Origin: Mytilus edulis
Taxonomy: Eukaryota
Direction of reading: 5' to 3'
Length of the DNA: 64,000 nucleotides
NCBI RefSeq assembly: GCF_963676685.1
Contig: NC_092344.1
Span: 99,138,001-99,202,000 of the forward strand
Numbering within the stretch: position 1 is the stretch's first letter; each line of letters starts with the position of its first letter. Shown piece by piece: positions 81 to 63,300 of the stretch. Below the pieces are notes generated by a model. That model saw only the letters and a program-made list of their open reading frames with translations, was not told where the DNA came from and did no database searches. The position numbers were made by a program, and so were the translations under genes.

Positions 81-2192
81 AGAACAAATTAGAGGGCTAG
101 GGTAAGATCCAAAGAAATAATTGGTCTGATAGGTTCAGTTCCTGGCCATATACTTAAGAAAACAGACGAGGGGGCTGGGATAAGAATATTTATTATTCCA
201 ATCAAGCGCCCTTGATGGGCAGCATAACATGTACACATAAAACAATACATCATGATTTGTAACAGAAAAACATTTTTAAAAACTAAAATGAAACATTGAA
301 AAAAAGTTCAGACAGATCTATAAAAATCATATACATTTAATTCCAGGCAGGATCAGAACCAGAAAATCATTACAATTATCATTGTTATAACATACATTAT
401 TAACATTTCGTCTAACATCTAGACATGTAATAATATAGCTCCCTAAATATTTAAGTACAGATATATTTTCATTAGTAAGTAACCAAACAAATTTTGCCTC
501 GTTTGAAAGATGTATAAAATTAAGACAAATACAGTTTATCACCTTGAAAAATATCTCCCTATCATTTTTGTATGCTGGACAATTAGTTATAAAATGTTGT
601 TCATCTTCAACCAGATTTAGAGTACGTAACATTTCTTACAAAGCCTTTAGATAAGATCCAAAGAAATAACTGGTCTGAAAGGTTCAGTCCCTTCCAGTAT
701 ACAGAACAGATAAGAGGCCAGGGTAAGATCCTAAGAAATAACTGGTCTGATAGGTTCAGTCCCTTCCAGTATACAGAACAGATAAGGGGGTCAGGGTAAG
801 ATCCAAAGAAATAACTGGTCTGATAGGTTCAGTCCCTTCCAGTATACAGAACAGATAAGGGCGTCAGGGTAAGATCCAAAGAAATAACTGGTCTGATAGG
901 TTCAGTCCCTTCCAGTATACAGAACAGATAAGGGGGTCAGGGTAAGATCCAAAGAAATAACTGGTCTGATAGGTTCAGTCCCTTCCAGTATACAGAACAG
1001 ATAAGAGGCCAGGGTAAGATCCTAAGAAATAACTGGTCTGATAGGTTCAGTCCCTTCCATTATACAGAACAGATAAGGGGGTCAGGGTAAGATCCAAAGA
1101 AATAACTGGTCTGATAGGTTCAGTCCCTTCCAGTATACAGAACAGATAAGGGGGTCAGGGTAAGATCCAAAGAAATAACTGGTCTGATAGGTTCAGTCCC
1201 TTCCAGTATACAGAACAGATAAGGGGGCCAGGGTAAGATCCAAAGAAATAACTGGTCTGATAGGTTCAGTCCCTTCCAGTATACAGAACAGATAGGGGGC
1301 CAGAGTAAGATCCAAAGAAATAACTGGTCTGATAGGTTCAGTCCCTTCCAGTATACAGAACAGATAAGGGGGCCAGGGTAAGATCCAAAGAAATAACTGG
1401 TCTGATAGGTACAGTCCCTTCCAGTATACAGAACAGATAAGGGGGTCAGGGTAAGATCCAAAGAAATAACTGGTCTGATAGGTTCAGTCCCTTCCAGTAT
1501 ACAGAACAGATAAGAGGGCCAGGGTAAGATCCAAAGAAATAACTGGTCTGATAGGTTCAGTCCCTTCCAGTATACAGAACAGATAAGAGGGCCAGGGTAA
1601 GATCCAAAGAAATAACTGGTCTGATAGGTTCAGTCTCTTCCAGTATACAGAACAGATAAGGGGGCCAGGGTAAGACCCAAAGAAATAACTGGTCTGATAG
1701 GTTCAGTCCCTTCCAGTATACAGAACAGATAAGGGGGTCAGGGTAAGATCCAAAGAAATAACTGGTCTGATAGGTACAGTCCCTTCCAGTATACAGAACA
1801 GATAAGGGGGCCAGGATAAGATCCAAAGAAATAACTGGTCTGATAGGTTCAGTCCCTTCCAGTATACAGAACAGATAAGGGGGCCAGGGTAAGATCCAAA
1901 GAAATAATTGGTCTGATAGGTTCAGTCCCTTCCAGTATACAGAACAGATAAGGGGGCCAAGATAAGATCCAAAGAAATAACTGGTCTGATAGGTTCAGTC
2001 CCTTCCAGTATACAGAACAGATAAGGGGGTCAGGGTAAGATCCAAAGAAATAACTGGTCTGATAGGTTCAGTCCCTTCCAGTATACAGAACAGATAAGGG
2101 GGCCAAGATAAGATCCAAAGAAATAACTGGTCTGATAGGTTCAGTCCCTTCCAGTATACAGAACAGATAAGGGGGCCAGGGTAAGATCCAAT
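81..2192 (+). repeat. 73-bp tandem minisatellite (~21 near-identical copies 656-2192 plus ~1.5 diverged copies 81-185), probably intronic to LRIG
   Basis: Unit GGGTAAGATCCAAAGAAATAACTGGTCTGATAGGTTCAGTCCCTTCCAGTATACAGAACAGATAAGGGGG(T/C)CA repeats with period 73 (e.g. 721, 794). Confidence 0.97.
186..649 (-). mobile_element. 5'-truncated non-LTR retrotransposon (CR1/L2-group-like 3' end) inserted in the minisatellite
   Basis: ORF 327-632(-) has VEDEQHFITNCPAY...FVWLL, resembling the C-terminal EDxxHxxxxC region of LINE ORF2; 3' UTR has a small hairpin and AATAAA on the - strand; flanked by 7-bp direct repeat GATAAGA (179-185, 650-656). Confidence 0.8.
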
Positions 2193-22800: not shown

Positions 22801-25800
22801 TGCATTTGTGACAGGTAGATCTATCAATTAACCGTAGGTATTTGGATTTAGATTACCGATCTGTCACAAGCAGTTTTGGCACATTTTTTTTTAAAAGTTC
22901 TCAGCATTTTGTTGCTGCAGTGATTATGATTTTGATGGACCAGTATGTCCCAAGAACACGTATATGATGAAGCAATCCAAGTCTTTGACTAAGCAGAAAG
23001 CACTTTGTCAGAATGAGAGATGATATTATTTTAATAGCATTTTTGTTTGTTATTTACTGTCATCATTCATTGTTAGACTGATCATTTCTGAAAAAGATTT
23101 TCTGCTTATATATTGAACTGACGTAATGAATTGTACACAATATCTTTATAACATGGAAACAGTTTTTTGTAATTCCTCTTTCTTGTGTAGTAACACATTC
23201 AGATAAAATGATATGTTAGCTTTCATTACCTTGATGATATCATAAATTATACAAGTGATAAGCAGATTTTCAAAATAAATATAGGGCAAAGTAAAAATTA
23301 ATATTTGAATGTTTTTTTGGCAGCACTGATTTACATATGATATTTTATTATCTTTACAGAGAATTAAGTAATAATGAACTTTCCTGGACAATAGAAGATA
23401 TGAATGGAACCTTCAGTGAACTACATAATTTAGAAAGTCTAAGTTTGGAGAACAACAAGATTAAATCTATTGCCAAGAATGCTTTTAATGGTCTAATCAA
23501 AGTGAAAACTTTAAATCTTCTCAATAATGAAATATCTACCATCCAGTCAAACGCTTTTGAGACCATGGTTGAGATGGATTCATTGTAAGTATACCTGTTC
23601 ATCAGACCTTTAAGTGTCACAGTGAATTATAGTGTTTTGTTGATTCTTATAACTGAAAGCCATATTATTTATACCTTTTTCCCCAATTTTGGTCTTTGCC
23701 AAAGTTGTTAAAAATGCGGTTACTTTCATGATTTTGCAAAAAAATATACAATGATAAGGAAATGCAACATAATCACACCAAGAAATTAACCTTGCAGGTA
23801 AACATGGTAGAGGGGAAAGTGTATTATGACTGAATGTAACCGATCTAATTCTTCAGATGGTCACATGATAATGTTCATTTGATATGTCACGCTTGTTTAA
23901 GATATTTGATATCCGTCCTCAGACTTGTCACAGAAGTATTAAGTTCATTATACCAGCAGTCTTACTTAACAAGATATTGTGCAACATAATAATACAAACA
24001 TATTTGTGTAATCATATTTGCTCCCATTTAATAATATCAAATCAACAATGTAATGCAAAAAATGACTAATTTTGATAAAATTATAATCTCTGGTGTTTAT
24101 GTTGTCACGGTGACATTCATACTGTATTTATGTTTGATCTTTTTGTTCATAAGTGGTCATATTGTGTAATCATACTCATTTTGAAATAAAACTATCATAA
24201 TTTTGATTGTATTTCATATTATTATTGCAAAAAAGTTATTTAGCACCAAATAATTGCATGTAACAATATACTTCTTCATCTCTTGTTAATGAATGTCAAT
24301 AGCATGAAAGTTGTTTTTGTTTTGTAGGAAATTTTACTCGACTAACTTTCTGTGTGACTGTAAACTAGCCTGGTTATCACAGTGGTTGATGGCCAAGAAG
24401 TTTGAGAAGTCTGTGACAGCTAGTTGTCAACATCCTGACGACCTTGAGGGAAAGAGTATCTTCAGTATTGACCCTGAGCTGTTCAAGTGTGGTAAGGGTT
24501 ATACTGCTTCTATAGTATATGCACATTAAGATGTCAAGTGTGGTAAGGGTTATACTATAGTATATGCACATTAAGATGGTATGCACAAATAAATTTCAAA
24601 GATAGTAAACTGATTGGAGAACAAGAGCAAAAACATAGAAAAATATCAGCAGTTTTTGGGTTTGTGTCTAAAATGGTTCAATATTTATTAATTTTAACAG
24701 TTCACCTCTCCTGTATTTTTTAGACCTGACCTTCATAAAGTTTTAAATAGTACCATTACAAGATACACTCACTAATTTCAAGTCCAGCTTAAGATAGTGT
24801 TGATTGAATCACTGATGAAGTGTGAATGAAGATAGTGTGTTTGATAACACACTGATATAGTGTGATTGTTGATTGGATGTGTGATAAAACACTGATATAG
24901 TGTGATTGTTGATAGGGTGTGTGATTAAACACTGATATCCAATGTTAACTGATTTCTACTGAATATGCAAGGACTTCAAATCAAATGAATTTTATGCGTG
25001 ATCAATTTGTGTGTACTGTGATTTTAGTGAACGAAAGGTCTGTTATGTATTTAATATAAAACATTTATCAAAGCACTTCAATAATATAGATCAGTTCTGA
25101 ATCTTTAAGTGATTGATTACATTACAGATGGTAATACATTAAAACCAGTGATCAGTATCAGTCCCATTTCCAGGAAAGCTGTACAGGGAGATAACATTAC
25201 TCTTACCTGTGAAGCTGTCAGTACAAAGGATTCAGATACACAATTCAATTGGAAGAAAGACAATATAGTAAGTTTCATTATTGTTATCCCAAAAAAGTTG
25301 TCAGCACTGCAGATTTTGAGAACTTGCTAAGCTGGAAGAAAGTTAGGTGAAAATATTTTTTTTTTTTTTGCTGGAAGAAAATTGTTTGAAAAAAGTGTTT
25401 TATTGCTTCTTAATTGTAGACCATAACATCAATGTGGAAGAGTATCCAATGCAAACAATTAATTTTAAAATAAAAAAAATCAGCTTTTGTGATGCTGTTT
25501 CATTGAGGACTTCCATGTATTCCTATCACACTTTCACAGTAAAATACAGGACAAAAGAAAACTGTACTGCAGCCATGGCTTTAAACAGAAAATATGCAGA
25601 CATCTCCATTTTAATCTAAAGTATCAATTATATTGTAAAATGTTTTTAGATATTAAAATGTTGGTTTCAGTAATTTTGATTGTGTTTAATACATGTATTG
25701 TAAGGATGATGTTTATATTTCAGTTACTGCTGAATCCATTAACTGAGAACAAAATAGCAAAAGATGATACTAAGATAATCAGATATTCCTCCAAATTACA

Positions 25801-48150: not shown

Positions 48151-48307
48151 ATGGCAGATTCCATCTGTTCAAGTTCTGACGAAGAGGAAATATTAACGTA
48201 TAAGCTTAGAATCCACGACGCTGACATTTCTGATTCGGGGAAATGGCAATGTGAAGTCAAGGATAAGTATGGAACTGTGTCGACAACATGTGACCTTGAC
48301 GTATTCG
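48151..48307 (+). CDS. Titin-like gene, probable first coding exon (half-Ig module 1)
   Basis: Kozak-like CACCATGG; donor G|GTAAGT; acceptors ending at 48131/48137. Confidence 0.8.
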
Positions 48308-51300: not shown

Positions 51301-54300
51301 TATAGAATATGGACCCAGATATGGATTTTTAAGTATTTTCAAGTAATCGTTTGCATAAAAATCTAGTTACAAACTTATTTTTGATTAATCAAGTTAAGAA
51401 GATGTTTAAGGTCACATTAGTAAGTAAACATTGAAGACCCATTGGTGGCCTATGGCTGTTGTCTGCTCTATGGTCGGGTTGTTGTCTCTTTGACACATTC
51501 CCCATTTTCATTCTCAATTTTATTCAGGGATACTTTTCAAATTAAACAAATTAATGAAAAGGAAGTTGCAATAAAATTTTATTTATAGATACTATTGTGT
51601 TGTGAGTGTGTTATTATTGTTTTTCAAAGCTAAGAGATAACGATGAAGACTTGTAGAACAAAATATTTGATTGTTTATTATATTAAAACATTTATTTTTT
51701 AACATCAGAAGAAGCTAAACGACAGTCGTTAGTTTCTGGTAGTGATATCACGGTTGTGCAGAATGGTACAGTACTCAATGGAAAGTCTGTCAATGGAACT
51801 GGTTCTGACTCGGAGGAAGAGATTTTGACATATCGTCTTAAAATCCATGATGCTAATGTCAAGGATGCAGGGAAATGGAAATGTGAAGTCAAGGATAAAT
51901 ATGGAACAGCATCTACATCATGTGATCTGGATGTCTATGGTAAATATTTTTGTATTTGACAAAGACTGTTGACAAATTTTTTGAGTAATGATAAAATTTA
52001 TTTCCATTTACTATTGACACACATTTTAAACATTTATAGACCTGTTTCACAAAATTTTAATTGATCATTCTCTGGAATTTGGAGTCTACATATGCATTTA
52101 AATTTTGATGCTCAATTGCAGTTAGAAGAGCTAACATAAATATTGAAATATGACATTAATACATTTATGTACTAGTATTCTTCACATATTGTCTGCATGG
52201 GAAAATGGTATGAATAGTATAGAAATATATTTAAAGCAGGCAATATGAACCAAGTTTTGAGTGAAATGTATTTCCAGGGTAGGACTTTTATTCATTTTGG
52301 TTTTATGTATATGATTGTGATAGTATTGTAACGTTTTCGCAAACCGGTGAGAACCTGTCAAGCTAACCGACAAAACTAACAACCAGACCAGACAGACACC
52401 AACAACGAACCAAAAGAATTTCACAGGAAATATAAATGCTCAAGATAAATTAATTACTATAGTACTGCTACCACAACGGCATATCACCAAAATATAGTTT
52501 CTAGGTCGGCGCCCAGTCTTTTATATGTGTGTGTGTAAGTCGGATAGATTTTTATATGTAATGTAATCAAGTATCAGCTCAGACTTTAGTTTGATGTTCT
52601 GAATGGAAACACAAAATAGTTTCAAGTGTATAATAACTTTTATTCACCAGACAATAATATTAAAAACAACTGGAACATGGATTAACAGCAATAAATCTCT
52701 TAAATCAACAATTAACAATAGTCCGTATAGATTAGACGAACATAAGATAATACTATAAAACAGCTACACCAAAAATCAACATTCAGGAAACACAGATTAT
52801 ATCAGCAACTCTCCATATAAATACATGTAAAATACTACACAAATAAATAAGACCCTATTTTCGTAACTCTCTTTTTATATTATAAAAAGATATATAAACA
52901 GCCACCCTACTATTCGAAACAAACGTCCACTTTTGCCGAGTTGACGCACCTTTCCTATTTAAAGTTAAAATTCATTATTAAACTTTATTCTCAAAACTTA
53001 GAATCTTTAGAAAACAAGAACGCTATTAAAATTCTGCCTCTGTTTAAAACTGGAAACTGGAACGGTTATATATGAACTGCATAAATAGTTACATTGCATA
53101 TATATATTGCAATAGAATCATATTCAAAACAGTGTAGCTGTGGCCATTGATTGACAACCTTAAATTATCCCATTGACTGGGGCATATTAGGTGAACGTGT
53201 GTCTGTAACGACAACTGCTCACTACTCACTTGTTATAGAATTTAAACTGTGGGGTCACCAAAGGTTCTTAACGCCTTTAATATTAAAATAGTTCGAAAAA
53301 TTAATCAGGAATAACTTTATGTTTTGATTTATATTATTGATATAAATCAAAACATCGTGTTATTCCGGATTAGTTTTTCTAATTTCTTTATTTAGGTGTT
53401 GAGAACCTTTTGTGACCCCACAGTTTAAGTGCCTTTAACAAGTACATAGTGAGCAGCGGTTGTTACAGACAAACGTTCACATAATCTGCCCCAGTCAATG
53501 GGATAATTTAAGGTTGTCAATCAATGGCCACAGCTACACTGTTTTGAATATGATTCTATACAGGAACTTAAACTGCTGCTTTAGAAAAACTGTACCTTGA
53601 AAGTTATGAGACAAGTTTATTTTACTGCTATCCGGAACTAGGGACAAGCTGGAACTGACGTAAAATACTATCAATCTTACGCTAGTGTTGTTATTTCGCG
53701 TGAGAGAAATTTCAAATATGGGTAAAATCCATGACCAAATAAGGAATCTTCCTTCTTAGGTAAATAACTTTGCACTTAACGTCTTAGAAAACAACGTCAT
53801 AACAGCCCAATTACAGTGAAAAGGTGCACAACGTCGGTGCAAAAATAGTTCGTAAGAAGCTATTACAATATTTAGAATAAAACTCTATTCTACATAAACC
53901 TTACATAAAATACTCTAACATTTCTCTCTATTTTGAAAAACATACAAAAATATAACTAAAACATGTCCAAGACAGTATACAATTTATACGATTTCTCAGG
54001 ATTGTCACTATATTTATCACAATACATGACTTCCGGTTAAAGCAAAAGTGAAAGTAACGTACATATTATTACAAGCTACCGGTCATAAAACCATGCTTTC
54101 TGTTACTCTGTTAACTTACAATATAAAAACATTTATACAATACATAGGTTATTATGACATAAAATACACACACTCCTTGCTATATACAATAATACTAAGT
54201 GCAGTCGTGGTAGAGACATAGACAAACAATGTCAACTTAGTTGAATTAAAACATGTAATCTCAATAATTCATAAAGTTTTCACAAGGTTTGATAAACAAT

Positions 54301-57300
54301 ACTTCCCAAAACATGTGAACAATATTAATGAAAATTTACGAACAACTGTTTTCTAAAATCGTCACAGTATTTAACTTAAAACCTCTAAACAACAATCAAC
54401 ACTCACTTTGTATATGAATGAATGTTTCAGATACACCTCCTAGCCCTGTTGGAGAAGAACCTAGATTTCTGATGAGTCTTAGAAATGTATCAACTTTAGA
54501 AGGAAAGAGTATTAAGTTGATATGTAGAGTCAGAGGTACACCACTCCCTAAAATTATTTGGTAAGTATTATTTAGTAGCAGTAGGATTGGGGTGATATCA
54601 TGCTATTTGGTAGTACGATTTAAAAATGATAAATATAAAGCAAAGATAGCTGACAATGAGTACAGCTTTTAAAATTATTTTTTCTTTCAAATTCTTGAGC
54701 AGTCTAAGCATTTCATCAACAGTATACCTAGCCTGTCAACACTGAATTGGGAGTTTCACCATTAAAAAAGTTCTGCCATGATACAATCAAGAGTGCTGAA
54801 TGTGATGTTAAGCACCAAGAACAAACCAGTTAATCTATTGTTGCTAACAATTTCATCAATAAGAATAAAAACGAGTTCTTTGTAAGTACATGTATAGATA
54901 AAGGTAATAGCACAACTGTTTTTGGTTATCAGCATACCAAGTGCTTTTCAACCTGATAATTATTGGCCATAGGCCTTTCACATCATTTACAGCCAAATGC
55001 ATTCAGTGTGTAGGCATTATACCAGGCAAGGGTAATATCTTTGGTTAGCTTGCTTGCTAGCTGAACTGTGAAGTCATTATTAGTAAAGGTATACTACCCT
55101 CCTTTCGAAGTAGCCTAGTCCTACAGACAGATAGATTGGTTATCTCTCGGACTAGTCTACTTTTAAACGAGAGTAGTTTTTCTGACATAACAATGACTTC
55201 ACGGTTCAGCTAGCAAGCAAGCTAACCAAACATATTACCTTTGCCTACACACTCAATGGAATCGACTGTAATGATTTAATGAATATTGAGCTTCTGGTAA
55301 TTTTCATTGCTGTTAGTAATAGGCTTTTTGGTTTATAGAATCATGCTTATTTTAAAGTGAACTTATAACATAAACTCCTCATCATTATTACTTGATCAAC
55401 ATAAAGATTTAATATTAGATCAGTTTCTAAATTATTGTTCAGGGGGAAAGAAATATCTCTGGGTTTTTATTTTCTTGCAATAAATTTTTGATTTTATATG
55501 AAATAATGATGGGTAATTTTTCTGACATCTACTTTAATTGAAGTGATTTTGACTTTAAAGGTATAAAGACAATGTTCCTATATCTAAAGATGATTACAAC
55601 TACCAAGTTCTCTATCTTAAAGATGGAACCATAAGTTTAGAAATATTTTATCCTAAGCCTGACAAAGATGCTGCAGTGTTCAAATGTGAGGCTCTAAATG
55701 ACAAGGGCTTGGTGACTTCTGAGGCCAAGGTCACTGTGCTTGCTAAGAGTAAGTGTATGGTAATTGTTAGTTATATGTTTTTGTGACAGTTTCATTATCA
55801 TATGCGAAAATTAAAACTTCCATGAATATTTTAAAGATTTGAAGGATGAAGACCATTCAAGAACTAATGCCAACAGGACCAATTTGTAACAAATGTTGCA
55901 GACGATAGATTACATGCACGTGTATATCACATACTTAATCTTTGTAATTCTAAATGAAAGGCAATGTTAGAAATCAGCACCTTTAACTAATGACAAGCAA
56001 ATTATAATGAATGTTACTCATGCAAGCAAGGGGAATTAACTCATATTGTGATAGTAGCAACACAAACCATTTGTTTTTACTAGAAATACATCTGTGACTG
56101 TGAGACAAAAAACCATCTTTCATCCTTCAAATTTAAACTCAAATTTTTCTACTTTATTAAAATTTTAACCCTGTAAAATTGTCACTTTCTGTATTCTGTA
56201 TTTGTTATACTGTCTATGGTTTTAAAGAAAATTAAGAGAAAAGGGAACATGTCATCATTTCCTTTTATTGATCAGACCTGCCAACTTTCACAACCAAAGG
56301 ATGATTTTTCCCATAAGAGGTATGCACCTGATTCTTGAAATATACCAGTACCTCTTAACAGGCATTTGAAGAATATTTAATAGCTTTTAAAACGTATGTA
56401 CTCATTCAAAACCATATACATGTAAAATAGATGCATTATGTTCTCTTGCTGTTGAAATCCCCTTGGAGATTTTAGAAGTTGGCAGAAGTTTTTTATGAAT
56501 GGAGAGTAAATTATGATAAAATTGAGAATGGAAATGGGGAATATGTCAAAGAGACAAAAACCCAACCATAGAACAGACAACAGCAGAAGGTCACCAATAG
56601 GTCTTCAATGCAGTGAGAAACTCCTGCACCTAGAGGCGTCCTTCAGCTGGCTCCTAAACAAATGTATATACTAGTTCAGTCATAATGGACGTCATACTTA
56701 ACTCCAAACTATACACAAGAAACTAAAATTAAAAACTTCACTTGTATTTCAAAGCATATGAATTTTTGATTAACTTTTTCAGACAGAGAAGAATCTGTCT
56801 CAAGAGATCATTTGTTGAACCTTTCCCAGTGGAGCAGAGCCAGAAGCGAAACACGTCGTGCAGCAAGTGAATCGCGCACCTCAACACGAGCAACTAGTGA
56901 ATCACGATATACCTCCTCCAGTTCATTGAAATCATCCAGCAAGAAACTGGAGGACTATTATATAAATAGAGGGACATCAAAATATGGAAATTATGAATGT
57001 GATGACATAGATGCCAAGTATGATGTATATAAACCAGGGTACACTCCTCTTAAATTTCTCAATACAAATGAAATGGAACCAGAAATGAGGTTGAAGATAA
57101 GATGGGGCACAACCGAAGAGTTCTACTTTCAAGAAAATCTGAAGAATAAATGTATCTTAGAAGGATCTCGTGCTTTTCTGAGTTGCTTTCTTATTGGAAA
57201 GTTGCCAATGTATGTTCAGTGGTACAAGGATGGGAAGGCATTACCGAACAACATTTATGAAAGATATGGAATCAGAGTAAGTCTTTAGATAGACTTTTTC

Positions 57301-60300
57301 AAAATTTTATGATTGATTGGTTGTTGGTGTTTAAAGCCATTTCCAGCACTCTCAGCTATATCATGGGGGCATTTTTAAAAATTTATGGTAGGGCAGACCT
57401 GAGGGGTATAGAACCACTAATCCAGGCTGGAAAGAACATTCACGAAAGTAGTACATTTGTAGATATTTTTAACAACAAAGTTCCTATGCTTAGCTGTATC
57501 TTTGTCAATAGATGAAATATTTGATATGCAAAGCTACAGACTAAAAGTTGATATTTGATTTGTAAAGACCAGTAATGTTTTAAGTTTTAGAGTTTTGATA
57601 TCAGACCCAATATTTTCAAATTGTAAAAATACTTTTAACTTACTATAAATTTATATTTCAGCAAATATCAGGACATCTGAGTCTAGAAATACTATGAACT
57701 GAGTTAGAGGATTGTAAATTGTTTGTTTTATATTTCAGCAAAGATCAGGACATCTGAGTCTAGAAATACCATGAACTGAGTTAGAGGATTGTAAATTGTT
57801 TGTTTTATATTTCAGCAAAGATCAGGACATCTGAGTCTAGAAATACCATGCACTGAGTTAGAGGATTGTAAATTGTTTATTTTATATTCCAGCAAAGATC
57901 AGGACATCTGAGTCTAGAAATACCATGCACTGAGTTAGAGGATTGTAAATTGTTTATTTTATATTTCAGCAAAGATCAGGACATCTGAGTCTAGAAATAC
58001 CATGCACTGAGTTAGAGGATACAGGAGATTATTTAGTGGATGTCAGGAATGAACAAGGCAGAACAAATTCCTCTTGTTATATACAAATAGAACGTATGTC
58101 CATCTATAACAGATAAATATATATGACGGCCAGAGACCATGAGTTTTGTATATGGTCAATATGTTTTCACCAAAATATTTTCCCAAATATTTAATGATAA
58201 AACAGAGTTAAACATTAAACAGACCTGAGTACTCAAACGCTAAATTTGAAAGCCATGCATATATAAAAATACCTAAAAAAATAGCCCTGATTAATCCAAC
58301 TTAAGGTAAATTTCTTGATAACTTTTTAATTTATCAACAGAAATTTAAGAAAAGTATGTTGTCAATCATGTTGGTATTGAAGCACTGATTACGGTAATAA
58401 TAAAATAATTGTCAGTTTCTGTCATAGGCAGTGATTCTCAGTGACTTGTAAGTATCAAATATTTTTAAAAACATTAATATTTAGATAACTTGAATTTCAG
58501 CAAGATTCAAACATGATATTGAATTTGAAAAGCCAACATTTGTGGAGGGAATTCGCCATATTCATGTAAATGAGGGACAGACGGCTACATTCCAAGTTAT
58601 TGTCAAAGGGAAACCTAGGCCAGGAATAAAATGGTAAGGGGAAATGTCAAAAGCAATCAATCATAAGACAGGAATAACAAGGTAAGGTTAAAAGCAATCC
58701 TTAGCTAGGAATTACATGGTATGGGTAAATGGCAAAGGCAATCCTTATCCAGTAGTATCATGATAAGAAGATAAAGGCTTTCCTATCCAGGGATAACATG
58801 GGACCGGGAAATGTCAAAGGTTTTCCAAAGCCAGGAATAACTTGGTGAAAAGAAATGTCAAAGGCAATCCCAAGCCAGGAATAACTTGGTAAATAGAAAT
58901 ATCTTAGGCAATACTTAGCCAGGAATAACATGGATGAAACATCTTACCCCACCCTCATTTTGTAGGCATTTGATGTAGCTGTTAGTCAATAAACAAAATA
59001 AAAGCAGGACATTTATACTATGGTCAGGTTTAGATATACCATTTGGTAGAAATTTATATCTTCCAAATGTTACTTAAAAAAAATCATAATTATGTTGAAG
59101 TTACATTTTTGTCTCTTCAAATTGAAATACAATTATGTTAGTAATGTAATGTAAAAAAAAAGAAATATTAATTTTATATATTTAGTTATAATTCAGGTGG
59201 CTGTTAAAGGAAATCCCTCATTAGCATAACCATTATAAAGATATCTTATCATTTATGTCGCCATTTATATCATGAATACCTAATTTTAAAATGTAAGTGA
59301 AATGTATTTGTTTGAAATTACAATGAATATTTTATGTAATGTAGGTTTAAAGATGGAAAGCGTATCCAAGTTACACAGAAGACTACAATCCACAATGGTC
59401 AAAAGGGAGGTAGTCTGCTAATGATCCACACATGTAACTTCTCTGATCAAGGACTGTATAAAGTAGAGGCCCATAATATGGCAGGAAGGTGTTCTGGATC
59501 AGCTAAGCTTTCAGTTTTTGGTAAGCTTAAAACATGTGCTGTATTTTGCTCTTTAATTTAAATTGAAACCAAAAATTAACTTGCATTTGTTTTTTATTTT
59601 ATTTCAGATCATATAAGGAGATATCTGTTGTATTCTATTGTCATGTTTTTAACACTTTTATCTTTTTATGTCATCACTTTTATCAACCGTTTTATAGACA
59701 TGCTATGATAAACCAACTTGAACAAATATAGTCCGCAATACAATATGACTTAAAAGTCATTAGGAACAAAATTATAAATACCATCAGGTTCTCTGCAAAC
59801 AAAAAGCTTGCAGGAACCCTTTAAATAATGCTTGCAGAAGTTTGCAGCTAGCTGTGAACCTCCTGCAAAAGTTTGCAGAAACAATTATGTTTGCAGTAAG
59901 ATTGCAGGAAAAACTAAAATATAAGGGATGTTCAATGCTAGATTGCAGAAATCATTGACAATTCTATATGTTTTGCACAAACATTGTAAGAAAACATTAC
60001 CATGGAGCATCAACTAAAATTTCTCACCAAATTTCTGACTTCGGATAATTAATTAATTTATTAAAAAAAATAAAAATATCAATCTGTTTATGTGCAACTG
60101 ATATTGTGCATAAAAGATAAAATAAGTTAGATCGGGCCTACTAATGAATCATTTATTTCATTTCATAGTTTTGTTTAAAATTTAAAGCAAATAAAAATTC
60201 AGCAGAGATTTCATTCCATAAAAAACAAGATAGAACTCATAAACTTGAATTTATAAAAAAAACAACCTGTTTTATTGGCAATTTTCTATTCTTTTTCCAG

Positions 60301-63300
60301 AATCTGGTACAAGGTTTATATGTGGTGAAAATGGAGATATCAAGATAATTCGCAGAAAAGATTCTTTAGAAGATGAGGAAATTGATACAGAGAATTTATC
60401 TTGCCAGATGCTTTCAAGTACCATGGAGAGAGAAGAAAGTTTAGCGGTCAATGGAGGTGAAACTGAGAGTGTAAGGGGTTTTGATGAAATGGACATTACT
60501 CTAAAAAAGAGTAAAATGGTGGCGACTGCTGTGAACGGAGACTTAGAAATTGTTGAAGCTTCAAGCAAGATTGAAACTGTAAAGGGATCAACCGAAACTA
60601 CAGAGCAGAAACAAACTGAAACAAAGACAACCAGTAAAATGACTACTGATATTGATTCCGAAGCTCAAAAGGCTCAGAGTTTGGTTGATAGATCAGAGGC
60701 TAAAAGTGAGATTTCTGAGTCTATGAAACTTACAAGAAGTTCAGACCTGAAGATGTCATCTACAACCACTTCTTCATTAAAGATGTCAGCGATTACTAAT
60801 GATGAGAAAAGTTCAGTTGCTGCAATGGAATCAATAGAGATAAAAGGTTTAGATTTTAAAAGTTCAACGGTCACAGAAGACAAAGGAGAATTACAGAGCA
60901 AAGCTGACAAATCAGGTGTTTCAAGGTCATTAAATGAATCAGAATCAATTGCAAGTACAGACATCTCAAAAGTTGAATCAGCAAGGTCAGTAGTTCAAAA
61001 GTCAACAACTGAGATGGAATCAAGTGGCTCTGTTACTGTAGACACAAATTTAGACAAAACACAGGATCAGAATAATGAGTGTGAGACAAAGACAGTAGCT
61101 AAAGAAGGTTACTCTGTGGATGGACAAAAATCTACAGGCAATCTGCAGAGAACTGCATCATTTGAAGCAATAGAAAAAGCCAGAAGATTATCAAAAGGCG
61201 ATGTTAAATTAGAAAAATTATACTCACCAAATGCTAATGGAAGTCTTTTGTCTTCTAAATTCATTAAATCAAATGGAAAACTTAGTAGGGGGTCTTCAAT
61301 TGATGAGTCTGAAAAACCAAGGAGAAAGTTAAGTAAAGCTGCTTCTGTCGAGGATTCAGTTAATGGGTTGGCAAGTAGACGATTAAGTAAAGGCTCTTCT
61401 GTAGAAGATTCAGTCAACGGATTGGCAAATAGACGATCCAGTAAAGGCTCTCAAATGGAGGAAACAGGGAATGGAAAAATACATAGAAAACTTAGCAAGG
61501 GACTTTCAGTGGAAGACACAGGAAATGGAAGAAGAAAAGAAGTGATAAGCAATGAAGGTTCCCTTGAAACAAAAGTTACACAGAATTCTTCTGAAAGCAT
61601 TGAAGGTTCAAAAGTCACACAGAGTTCTTCTGAAAGCATGGAAAGTTCAAAAGTAACTTGTGAAGCAGAACAAATTGTAACAAAAGGAGACCATCAGACA
61701 AGTAGTTCAGAAACAAGTTTAACTGTTGATTCAGAAAGCAAGGGGACCAAGCTGAAATCTGATGAGTCAAAGGATGAAACTTTAACATTAAAGCAAGAGA
61801 CAGTTGTAAAAGAAATTGTTCCTGAAAAAGCATCCAAAAATGTTGAGATGGAAAGTGATTCAAAACAAACATCAACAGAAATAACAACATCAGAAGACAA
61901 AGCCACAGAGAAGATCAGGTCAGCAGACAGCAAAAACTCACAAGAGATTGTGACCAGTGTAGATGCTGAAGTTGCAAAGACACAAACAATTGCAAACAAT
62001 GAAAGTGCTGGGGCTGAAGTTTCAGCAGATAAGGCAGAAGTAAAAAGTTCTTCTGAAAAGTTGGAGGACGGAATTTCAACCAAAGAGAAAGAAGATAAAA
62101 CTGACAACAAAGACTGTACTAGAGAACAAGTAAAGGAAGTAGAAGTTAGTTTAATTACAGACACACACACTAGTCCTGTTCCATCAGTTGAAACCACATC
62201 TGATATCAAATCAAATACACCATCAGTTGAAACCACATCTGATATCAAATCAAATACAGATGATGCAAAGACAGAAAGGTCACTTGAAGCAGAAACAAAG
62301 TCACATGATATAGGTGCTCAGAGTTCAACTAAGGAATCCAAAGTTGTTGAAACTATGTCAAAGGTGTCAATAGAAAGTTCACAGGACAGATGTTCATCTG
62401 ACAAAGTAGATGCAGCTGTTTCTAAGGTAACTTCTGAAAGTTCAGCAGTGCAAAGTTCAAGTGAAACAAGTCAATCAATGGAAAAGACAACTGAATCTAC
62501 AGAGGGAAAACTTATGGTGGAAACAGAAAACTCTGGAGCATCAGAGAACAAATCATTAATAGTAACAGCTCAAACAAATTTTGAAGAAAAAACAGAGGAA
62601 ATGAATTCTATTGAAGCATCATCAGTCAAAGTTTTGAAATCAGAAAAAGAAATGTCAAATGACATCCTTACCAAAAAGACTGATTCAGTATTAAGTATAG
62701 AAGAACAATTAGAAACATCAGGTGAAAAAGTAAAGTTAACAAAACAGACTTCAATAGAAGATAAATCCATGACAACAAAAGGTCAAGAAATTGAAGAGAA
62801 ATCTTTGTTAAGATCAGACAAGATGTTTGTTGGAGGAGAGGATGCAGAAATCACAACAGAAGAAGAAAGCAGTAAAACAGAAGAGAAAGAAACCATCTAT
62901 ACTACACCACCAAATATTGTCAAATTTCTACCAAAAGTTGTGGTACTTAAAGATGGAGAAACATTGAAGTTCCAGTGTCTGGTATCAGGTGAACCTAGAC
63001 CTAAAGGTATGGATTGTATAAGATTTATTTATTGTTTTGTCTCTATTGTTGGTCCTGTATCACAAGTGTAACAAGTCTTATTTAGATTTAAAACCTCCAT
63101 TTTGAAGTCAGAAGATTACCATATTTTGTATTTTTTGTTAATTATGAAAATCAGAAATTTTGGTTATTGTTCGAACCTGATACTGATTAGTCTGAATTTT
63201 AATTAATTTCGAAATTTAGTGTAACCTGATTAATATCTAAGAAAGGTAAAATTTTCATAAAAAATGCTGTTTATTTTTTATTTGTTTAGCTTCAAATATA

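What the first reader, a model, noticed from the sequence alone, without database searches (positions are those of the whole stretch)
57647..58020. Five tandem copies of a 3' splice site; only the last yields protein
Seen: the 77-bp unit is a 26-nt intron tail (TGTAAATTGTTT(G/A)TTTTATATT(T/C)CAG) plus 51 coding nt. Copies 1-2 carry TGC>TGA stops; copies 3-4 would frameshift (+154, +77 nt). Divergence rises with distance from the true exon. Each unit junction also creates a GTAAAT donor-like site, so each copy resembles a 52-nt pseudo-exon separated by 25-nt GT..AG gaps that are probably too short to splice. Inference: the spliceosome must skip four near-identical acceptors, a natural test of exon definition and a possible poison-splicing switch.
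Basis: partly seen in the sequence, partly recalled or inferred. Interest (0 to 1): 0.7.

Follow-up and report, generated by a model that had tools for sequence, protein, structure and literature searches.

The report
Splice-acceptor "mirage" repeat in mussel gene
A 77-base piece covering the end of an intron and the start of an exon in a mussel immunoglobulin-repeat gene is repeated about five times, the RNA assemblies examined use only the last copy, and it is likely a harmless example of a repeat type already known from lancelets as a "mirage".

Summary
The array is real: 77 nt x 4.8 at 57650-58020, five CAG acceptors before an Ig exon of a Mytilus unc-89-like gene. One correction: copy 1 keeps only the last 12 nt of the 26-nt tail. 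Only acceptor 57970 gives an open frame (1 of 159 enumerated splice paths). Contigs of 4 of 4 presumed RNA runs show only the joint 57276>57970, but contigs drop rare forms and NMD would hide leaks. All 4 DNA runs, from three organism labels, break inside the array, and their contig ends and depths hint at different alleles; so it is not an assembly artefact. The same gene has three more exon-edge arrays, two donor and one acceptor. The anatomy matches the amphioxus BflGb6 "mirage" (PMC3087553). This scan has already noted the class in this and other genomes. Best reading: a tolerated minisatellite in which the exon-adjacent site wins, likely by exon definition, with NMD clearing leaks. No evidence for a poison switch. 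New member of a known kind; low interest.

The parts
56783..57276 (+). Upstream exon; ends with the first half of an Ig I-set domain; phase-0 donor GTAAGT at 57277
   Evidence: RNA joints 55748>56783 and 57276>57970; Pfam I-set profile positions 2-43; P0155 exact match
57277..57969 (+). 693-nt GT..AG intron that contains copies 1-4 and the tail of copy 5
   Evidence: joint 57276>57970 in 4 of 4 runs
57635..57639 (+). TTAAC branch-point-like motif, A at -24 from acceptor 1; not included in the repeated unit (function untested)
   Evidence: motif scan
57650..57712 (+). Copy 1: only 12 nt of tail plus 51 exon-derived nt; 3 substitutions against copy 5, including TGA
57713..57789 (+). Copy 2: 26-nt tail plus 51 nt; -14 G, TGA
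57790..57866 (+). Copy 3: 26-nt tail plus 51 nt; -14 G
57867..57943 (+). Copy 4: 26-nt tail plus 51 nt; -4 C
57944..58020 (+). Copy 5: tail, used acceptor (exon starts 57970) and first 51 nt of the true exon
57970..58093 (+). True 124-nt exon; second half of the Ig I-set domain (QRSGHLSLEIPCTELEDTGDY...)
58501..58633 (+). Next exon; first half of the next Ig domain
58601..58944 (+). Mirror case: decayed ~44-nt donor-side array, true copy plus 7 copies at 26-36/45 identity, 4 of the 7 still with GT; the first, exon-adjacent donor is used
   Evidence: RNA joint at 58632/3 in 3 of 4 runs

Best explanation
This is a minisatellite that copied an intron-exon boundary four extra times into the intron (a 'mirage'); the RNA contigs examined use the last, exon-adjacent acceptor, likely because it pairs across the shortest exon with the donor at 58094, and any leak to copies 1-4 would likely be removed by nonsense-mediated decay. 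Shown: the anatomy, the single open path, the joint in RNA contigs, presence in four DNA runs, sister arrays in the same gene. Inferred: origin by local tandem duplication with later slippage or unequal exchange (linked variants run AG, AG, CA, CA along the array); selection of the site by cross-exon proximity (candidate exons 432, 355, 278, 201, 124 nt; both flanking introns over 250 nt); NMD of leaks; near neutrality.
For: Only 1 of 159 splice paths (minimum intron 40 nt) and 1 of 675 (minimum 20 nt) is open and in frame. Joint 57276>57970 is in 4 of 4 presumed RNA runs from four studies; the listed contigs continue unbroken through all 124 nt of the exon, and no joint to another acceptor is listed. 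12 of 12 gene models that cover the junction (of 19 proteins read; 3 of the 12 come from the window's own assembly) carry one copy of the exon, in M. galloprovincialis and M. californianus too. In 4 of 4 DNA runs (organism labels A, A, C, D) contigs break inside the array and none joins across it. In run X1 the right-hand contig starts at 57975 instead of 57991, which with 31-letter words means that +36 C is unique to the last copy there, i.e. another allele (inference). In all 4 arrays of this gene the exon-adjacent site completes the Ig domain. Published precedent: BflGb6 has the same acceptor-side layout, 3 and 6 units on two haplotypes, and normal splicing by RT-PCR (PMC3087553, section 16). 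The exon-centric proximity rule is in PMC9225289.
Against: All RNA data are contigs of runs only guessed to be RNA. They drop rare forms, and whether those animals carry the array is inferred, not shown. In the human data of PMC9225289 the preference for the upstream 3' site is only reduced under exon definition, not abolished, so proximity alone does not predict exclusive use of the fifth site. Copies 2-5 have nearly the same tail (13/17 pyrimidines, 27-nt AG-free zone each), and the only YTRAY match lies before copy 1, so local sequence does not explain the choice. The 250-nt threshold comes from human work and is untested in mussels.
Confidence: 0.8

Rival explanations
1. Upstream copies are real competitors that had to be disarmed: copy 1, which kept the native branch-like motif, lost 8 nt of its pyrimidine tract, and the array persists only at lengths and sequences that keep leakage low (purifying selection, no regulation).
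For: Copy 1's tail aligns to the unit tail with one 8-nt gap and one substitution; it has the only TTAAC match but fewer pyrimidines, 10/17 against 13/17; left-flank contigs of all four DNA runs run into copy 1 with 0-6 other letters, so the odd tail is shared.
Against: No outgroup intron was found, so the direction of change is unknown; the 14 extra nt could equally be junction filler. Copies 2-4 are not weakened. Edge copies of mirage arrays are known to escape homogenisation without any selection (PMC3087553).
Confidence: 0.1
2. Regulated poison splicing: the cell uses acceptors 1-4 under some condition to send the transcript to NMD, and array length tunes the dose of the protein.
For: Every upstream path ends in a premature stop well before later junctions; the acceptors look intact; the array is shared by three organism labels.
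Against: No joint to copies 1-4 is listed in 4 of 4 runs. A premature stop follows by default from a 77-nt period. Alleles appear to differ. Four arrays in this gene and a two-copy one in the neighbour point to a general mutational process.
Confidence: 0.07
3. Internal GT sites turn copies into small pseudo-exons or recursive-splicing steps that add protein variants.
For: 18 GT dinucleotides lie inside the array, among them ATT|GTAAAT at each junction; introns from one copy to a later acceptor can be 102 nt or more.
Against: No path that uses an internal GT is open and in frame; internal sites match the 9-nt donor consensus at 2-5 positions against 6 for all five true donors checked; no such joint is listed.
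Confidence: 0.02
4. Assembly artefact.
For: None beyond the near identity of the copies.
Against: Copies differ at diagnostic sites; contigs that carry the unit junction are listed for all four DNA runs (X1 57496-57723, X2 57744-57832 and 57914-57986, X5 57694-57750, X11 57899-57986), and none joins across the array. X2 matches the window closely and may not be independent; X1, X5 and X11 differ from it in the flanks.
Confidence: 0.01

Closest known systems
Amphioxus 'mirage' minisatellites: globin BflGb6 (acceptor side) and BflGb9 (donor side), PMC3087553 (passages and section 16 read); Adh3, troponin C and PGBD5 as cited there and in PMC3902484 (one passage read). The primary Adh3 paper (PMC117041) was not held.
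   Same: Tandem copies of the 3' end of an intron plus the 5' part of the next exon; retained AG signals; normal splicing; allelic length variation; an edge copy that diverges; both boundaries affected within one gene.
   Different: Found in a bivalve, not a cephalochordate; 77-nt unit against 150-160 nt (BflGb6) or 10-72 nt (Adh3); somatic instability is untested here.
Human F7 intron 7 37-bp VNTR (PMC1557585; abstract and Discussion read)
   Same: A polymorphic minisatellite multiplies one splice site; only the exon-adjacent site is used although the others are identical.
   Different: Donor side. There the used site is the first transcribed and a 5'-to-3' scan explains it; here the used acceptor is the last transcribed. 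The 58601-58944 array is the direct F7 analogue.
Exon-centric proximity rule (PMC9225289; abstract, passages and section 9 read)
   Same: With long flanking introns, sites closest across the exon are favoured, as seen here on both sides.
   Different: Human data; for 3' sites the effect is a reduced upstream preference, not exclusivity.
Host gene: Mytilus unc-89-like multi-Ig protein (XP_052093757.1 M. californianus, 74%; XP_076078871.1 M. galloprovincialis, 92%)
   Same: Same exon and junction peptide in all models covering it.
   Different: The name is an automatic label; the listed Pfam domains are Ig-type and orthology to UNC-89/obscurin was not tested.

Membership tests
Mirage minisatellite (as described in PMC3087553) | Head-to-tail minisatellite-like repeat | tested here: met
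   77 nt x 4.8, 97% matches
Mirage minisatellite (as described in PMC3087553) | Unit spans an intron-exon boundary of a real gene | tested here: met
   26 intron + 51 exon nt; boundary confirmed by RNA joint and gene models
Mirage minisatellite (as described in PMC3087553) | Copies keep splice signals but regular splicing is not disturbed | tested here: met
   CAG in 5 of 5 copies; only the regular joint in 4 of 4 runs, at contig resolution
Mirage minisatellite (as described in PMC3087553) | Length or composition varies between alleles | tested here: inconclusive
   Contig ends and unit-contig depths differ between runs (X11 207 against flanks 23-27; X5 41 and 29 against 8-14; X2 12 and 7 against 7-9), but contig depth is not a copy number and no contig spans the array
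Mirage minisatellite (as described in PMC3087553) | Somatic instability (reported for Adh3) | not testable with these tools
   No raw long reads were offered
Regulated poison (NMD-coupled) alternative splicing | The alternative form carries a premature stop | tested here: met
   All upstream paths stop early
Regulated poison (NMD-coupled) alternative splicing | The alternative form is detectably produced and regulated | tested here: inconclusive
   Not listed in 4 of 4 runs, but contigs drop rare forms
Regulated poison (NMD-coupled) alternative splicing | The element is conserved beyond neutral intron | tested here: inconclusive
   Present in three organism labels but apparently variable; no distant outgroup intron obtained

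The most novel reading that the evidence does not exclude
Copies 1-4 are used at a measurable rate that NMD hides, so array length acts as a heritable dial on the output of this giant Ig gene. The working acceptor was cut off from its native branch point, which stayed with copy 1, and now branches in the short tail or in exon-derived sequence. Natural mussel alleles of different length would then form a ready dose series for 3' splice-site competition.
Probability: 0.08. Interest if true: 0.55.

Novelty: new member of a known kind. Interest (0 to 1): 0.2.

Why it matters
As one locus it matters little. It is usable as a clean test case: five near-identical acceptors of which the last transcribed is used, with apparently variable alleles, and a donor-side mirror on the next exon. 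The wider point is that mirages are not confined to lancelets: four sit in this one mussel gene. I found no paper on bivalve mirages in the searches run (open-access library only), but the scan has already noted this class many times.

Tried and rejected
RNA structure masking the upstream acceptors: the region folds less well than shuffles (z = +1.57, 97 of 100 shuffles fold at least as well). Pseudo-exon or recursive routes to protein: none open. Enrichment of duplications at exon edges: 4 of 34 edges against 49 of 300 non-exonic control points, so none shown. With model-based exon ends, 8 of 78 ends hit (3 of the 78 are start or stop ends, not splice sites); 5 are tandem copies and 3 are weak single matches (and the printout). 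Outgroup intron: none in metagenome contigs; no second copy in the own genome. No listed run is on record as RNA and none is held as raw reads; 4 of 6 presumed RNA runs and 4 of the 14 other holders were laid. Bin 57671-57837 has no cover in the four presumed RNA runs, and X11 has none at 58040-58165; holes prove nothing. First homologue search with the upstream exon found nothing; the 50%-representative search gave only generic multi-Ig proteins and one 66% fragment. The primary mirage paper could not be read. No supplements were read; Additional files 4-6 of PMC3087553 hold the BflGb6 alignments and could refine the comparison.

Full report
Observation. Tandem Repeats Finder gives period 77, 4.8 copies, 97% matches at 57650-58020. 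The five acceptors start exons at 57662, 57739, 57816, 57893 and 57970. Copies 2-5 are 26 intron-derived plus 51 exon-derived nt and differ from copy 5 at 2, 1, 1 and 0 sites. Copy 1 shares only the last 12 nt of the tail and has three substitutions in the exon part; its tail aligns to the unit tail with one 8-nt gap and one substitution. The TGA of copies 1-2 is one shared change. It is not needed: acceptors 3 and 4 read through the tail into a stop 32 codons on. Of 159 splice paths built from the five acceptors and all 18 internal GT sites (minimum intron 40 nt), and of 675 with a 20-nt minimum, only acceptor 57970 alone is open and in frame.

Host gene. The window is G000:C1:99138001-99202000, and the 581-nt region matches once in the genome. 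The flanking exons encode the two halves of one Ig I-set domain. The large downstream exon finds a 100% identical 3048-aa model on this contig, M. galloprovincialis LOC143048870 (92%) and an M. californianus 'unc-89-like' protein (74%). The neighbouring gene matches at 100% a cluster named LRIG3 of Mytilus edulis. Of 19 proteins read, 12 cover the junction, and all 12 have one copy of the exon; three come from the window's own assembly, and all are models, not experiments.

RNA. No listed run is on record as RNA, and all are contigs. Four of the six presumed RNA runs, from four studies, were laid. They look spliced: contigs jump GT..AG introns. All four show 57276>57970, and the listed contigs run on through the whole 124-nt exon, which separates acceptor 5 from acceptors 3 and 4. 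No other acceptor is listed. Limits: contigs drop rare forms, upstream use would give NMD substrates (established knowledge), and the genotype of these animals is unknown.

DNA. Four runs were laid (X1, X2 organism A; X5 organism C; X11 organism D). In each, the left contig ends inside or just past copy 1 (57723, 57696, 57723, 57679), contigs that carry the unit junction are listed, and none joins across the array. So the array exists outside this assembly and copy 1's odd tail is shared. X2 is nearly identical to the window and may not be independent. With 31-letter words, a right-hand contig should begin at 57991 if copy 4 equals copy 5, as in X2 and X5. In X1 it begins at 57975, as expected if +36 C occurs only in the last copy, and bins 57851-57976 are almost empty. 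X11 has a unit contig at depth 207 against 23-27 in the flanks. These are hints of differing alleles, not copy numbers.

Surroundings. The next exon has a mirror array at its donor: the true copy plus seven decayed ~44-nt copies at 26-36/45 identity (background elsewhere in the window reaches 26 once and 25 seven times), four still with GT; the first donor is used in 3 of 4 runs. A later exon of the same gene (L002:6097-6220) has ten copies of its acceptor (50-nt unit) and three of its donor (109-nt unit), and the models use the exon-adjacent sites. Over 78 model-based exon ends in two genes, 8 hit; 5 are tandem copies and 3 weak single matches. A matched test gave 4 of 34 edges against 49 of 300 non-exonic points, so I show no enrichment at edges; the control is not like for like and the sample is small and biased.

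Mechanism. Inferred origin: local tandem duplication, then slippage or unequal exchange, since linked variants at +36 and the following -14 run AG, AG, CA, CA. Inferred site choice: the candidate exons are 432, 355, 278, 201 and 124 nt, and both flanking introns exceed 250 nt. In human data, exon definition favours the sites closest across the exon (PMC9225289, abstract and passages), which fits all four arrays. For 3' sites that paper reports only a reduced upstream preference (section 9), so NMD of leaks is probably part of the picture. Copies 2-5 have equal pyrimidine content and AG-free zones, and the only YTRAY match within 60 nt lies before copy 1; one of the five other acceptors checked also lacks such a match, so this is a curiosity, not proof of a displaced branch point. 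RNA folding gives no sign of masking.

Known kind. [quoted passage not shown] PMC3902484 (one passage) adds Adh, troponin C and PGBD5. The human F7 VNTR is the donor-side case with a 50-construct test (PMC1557585, abstract and Discussion). The primary Adh3 paper was not held. Searches for a bivalve report found none (listings only). I reached the mirage reading before opening the scan's notes; those list the same class in this genome and in other mussel, scallop and urchin genomes (unchecked AI notes).

Verdict. A real, ordinary acceptor-side mirage; new member of a known kind; interest 0.2. A hidden, length-tuned poison function is not excluded (about 0.08) and needs raw reads under NMD block.

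Noticed in passing
window 58601-58944: Decayed ~44-nt donor-side mirage (true copy plus 7) on the exon after the finding; the first donor is used.
   Followed up: yes
L002 5590-6118 and 6139-6465 (G000:C1:99202001+): One 124-nt Ig exon of the same gene is flanked by a 10-copy acceptor array (50 nt) and a 3-copy donor array (109 nt); models use the exon-adjacent sites. No RNA laid there.
   Followed up: partly
window 24483-24578: Two-copy 45-nt duplication that repeats the last 9 exon nt and the donor of an LRIG3-like exon.
   Followed up: partly
window 652-2191: 73-nt x 21 array, most units ending GG|GTAAG-like; flanks read in places like an Ig-like segment (KIQWYK, SVLTI), but it is not among the exons matched to the LRIG3-like model, whose first 86 residues were not placed in the window. 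Unexplained.
   Followed up: no
window 48151-48306 and 51708-51938: Two similar Ig half-domain exons (EEEILTY.L.IHDA...GKW.CEVKDKYGT); the gene model starts in the first, so the 5' end of the model may be incomplete or an exon was duplicated.
   Followed up: no
window 56516-56735: High-copy interspersed repeat, with summed contig depth above 5,000 in all four presumed RNA runs.
   Followed up: no
window 60301-63006: A 2.7-kb exon encoding about 900 low-complexity S/T/E/K-rich residues with short coding repeats at 61329-61451, 61570-61654 and 62181-62258.
   Followed up: no
L004 9243 to L006 3999: About 15 kb of 34/102-nt satellite downstream of the gene.
   Followed up: no
window 4783-30799: LRIG3-like gene, 16 exons matched exactly to P0174.
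   Followed up: partly
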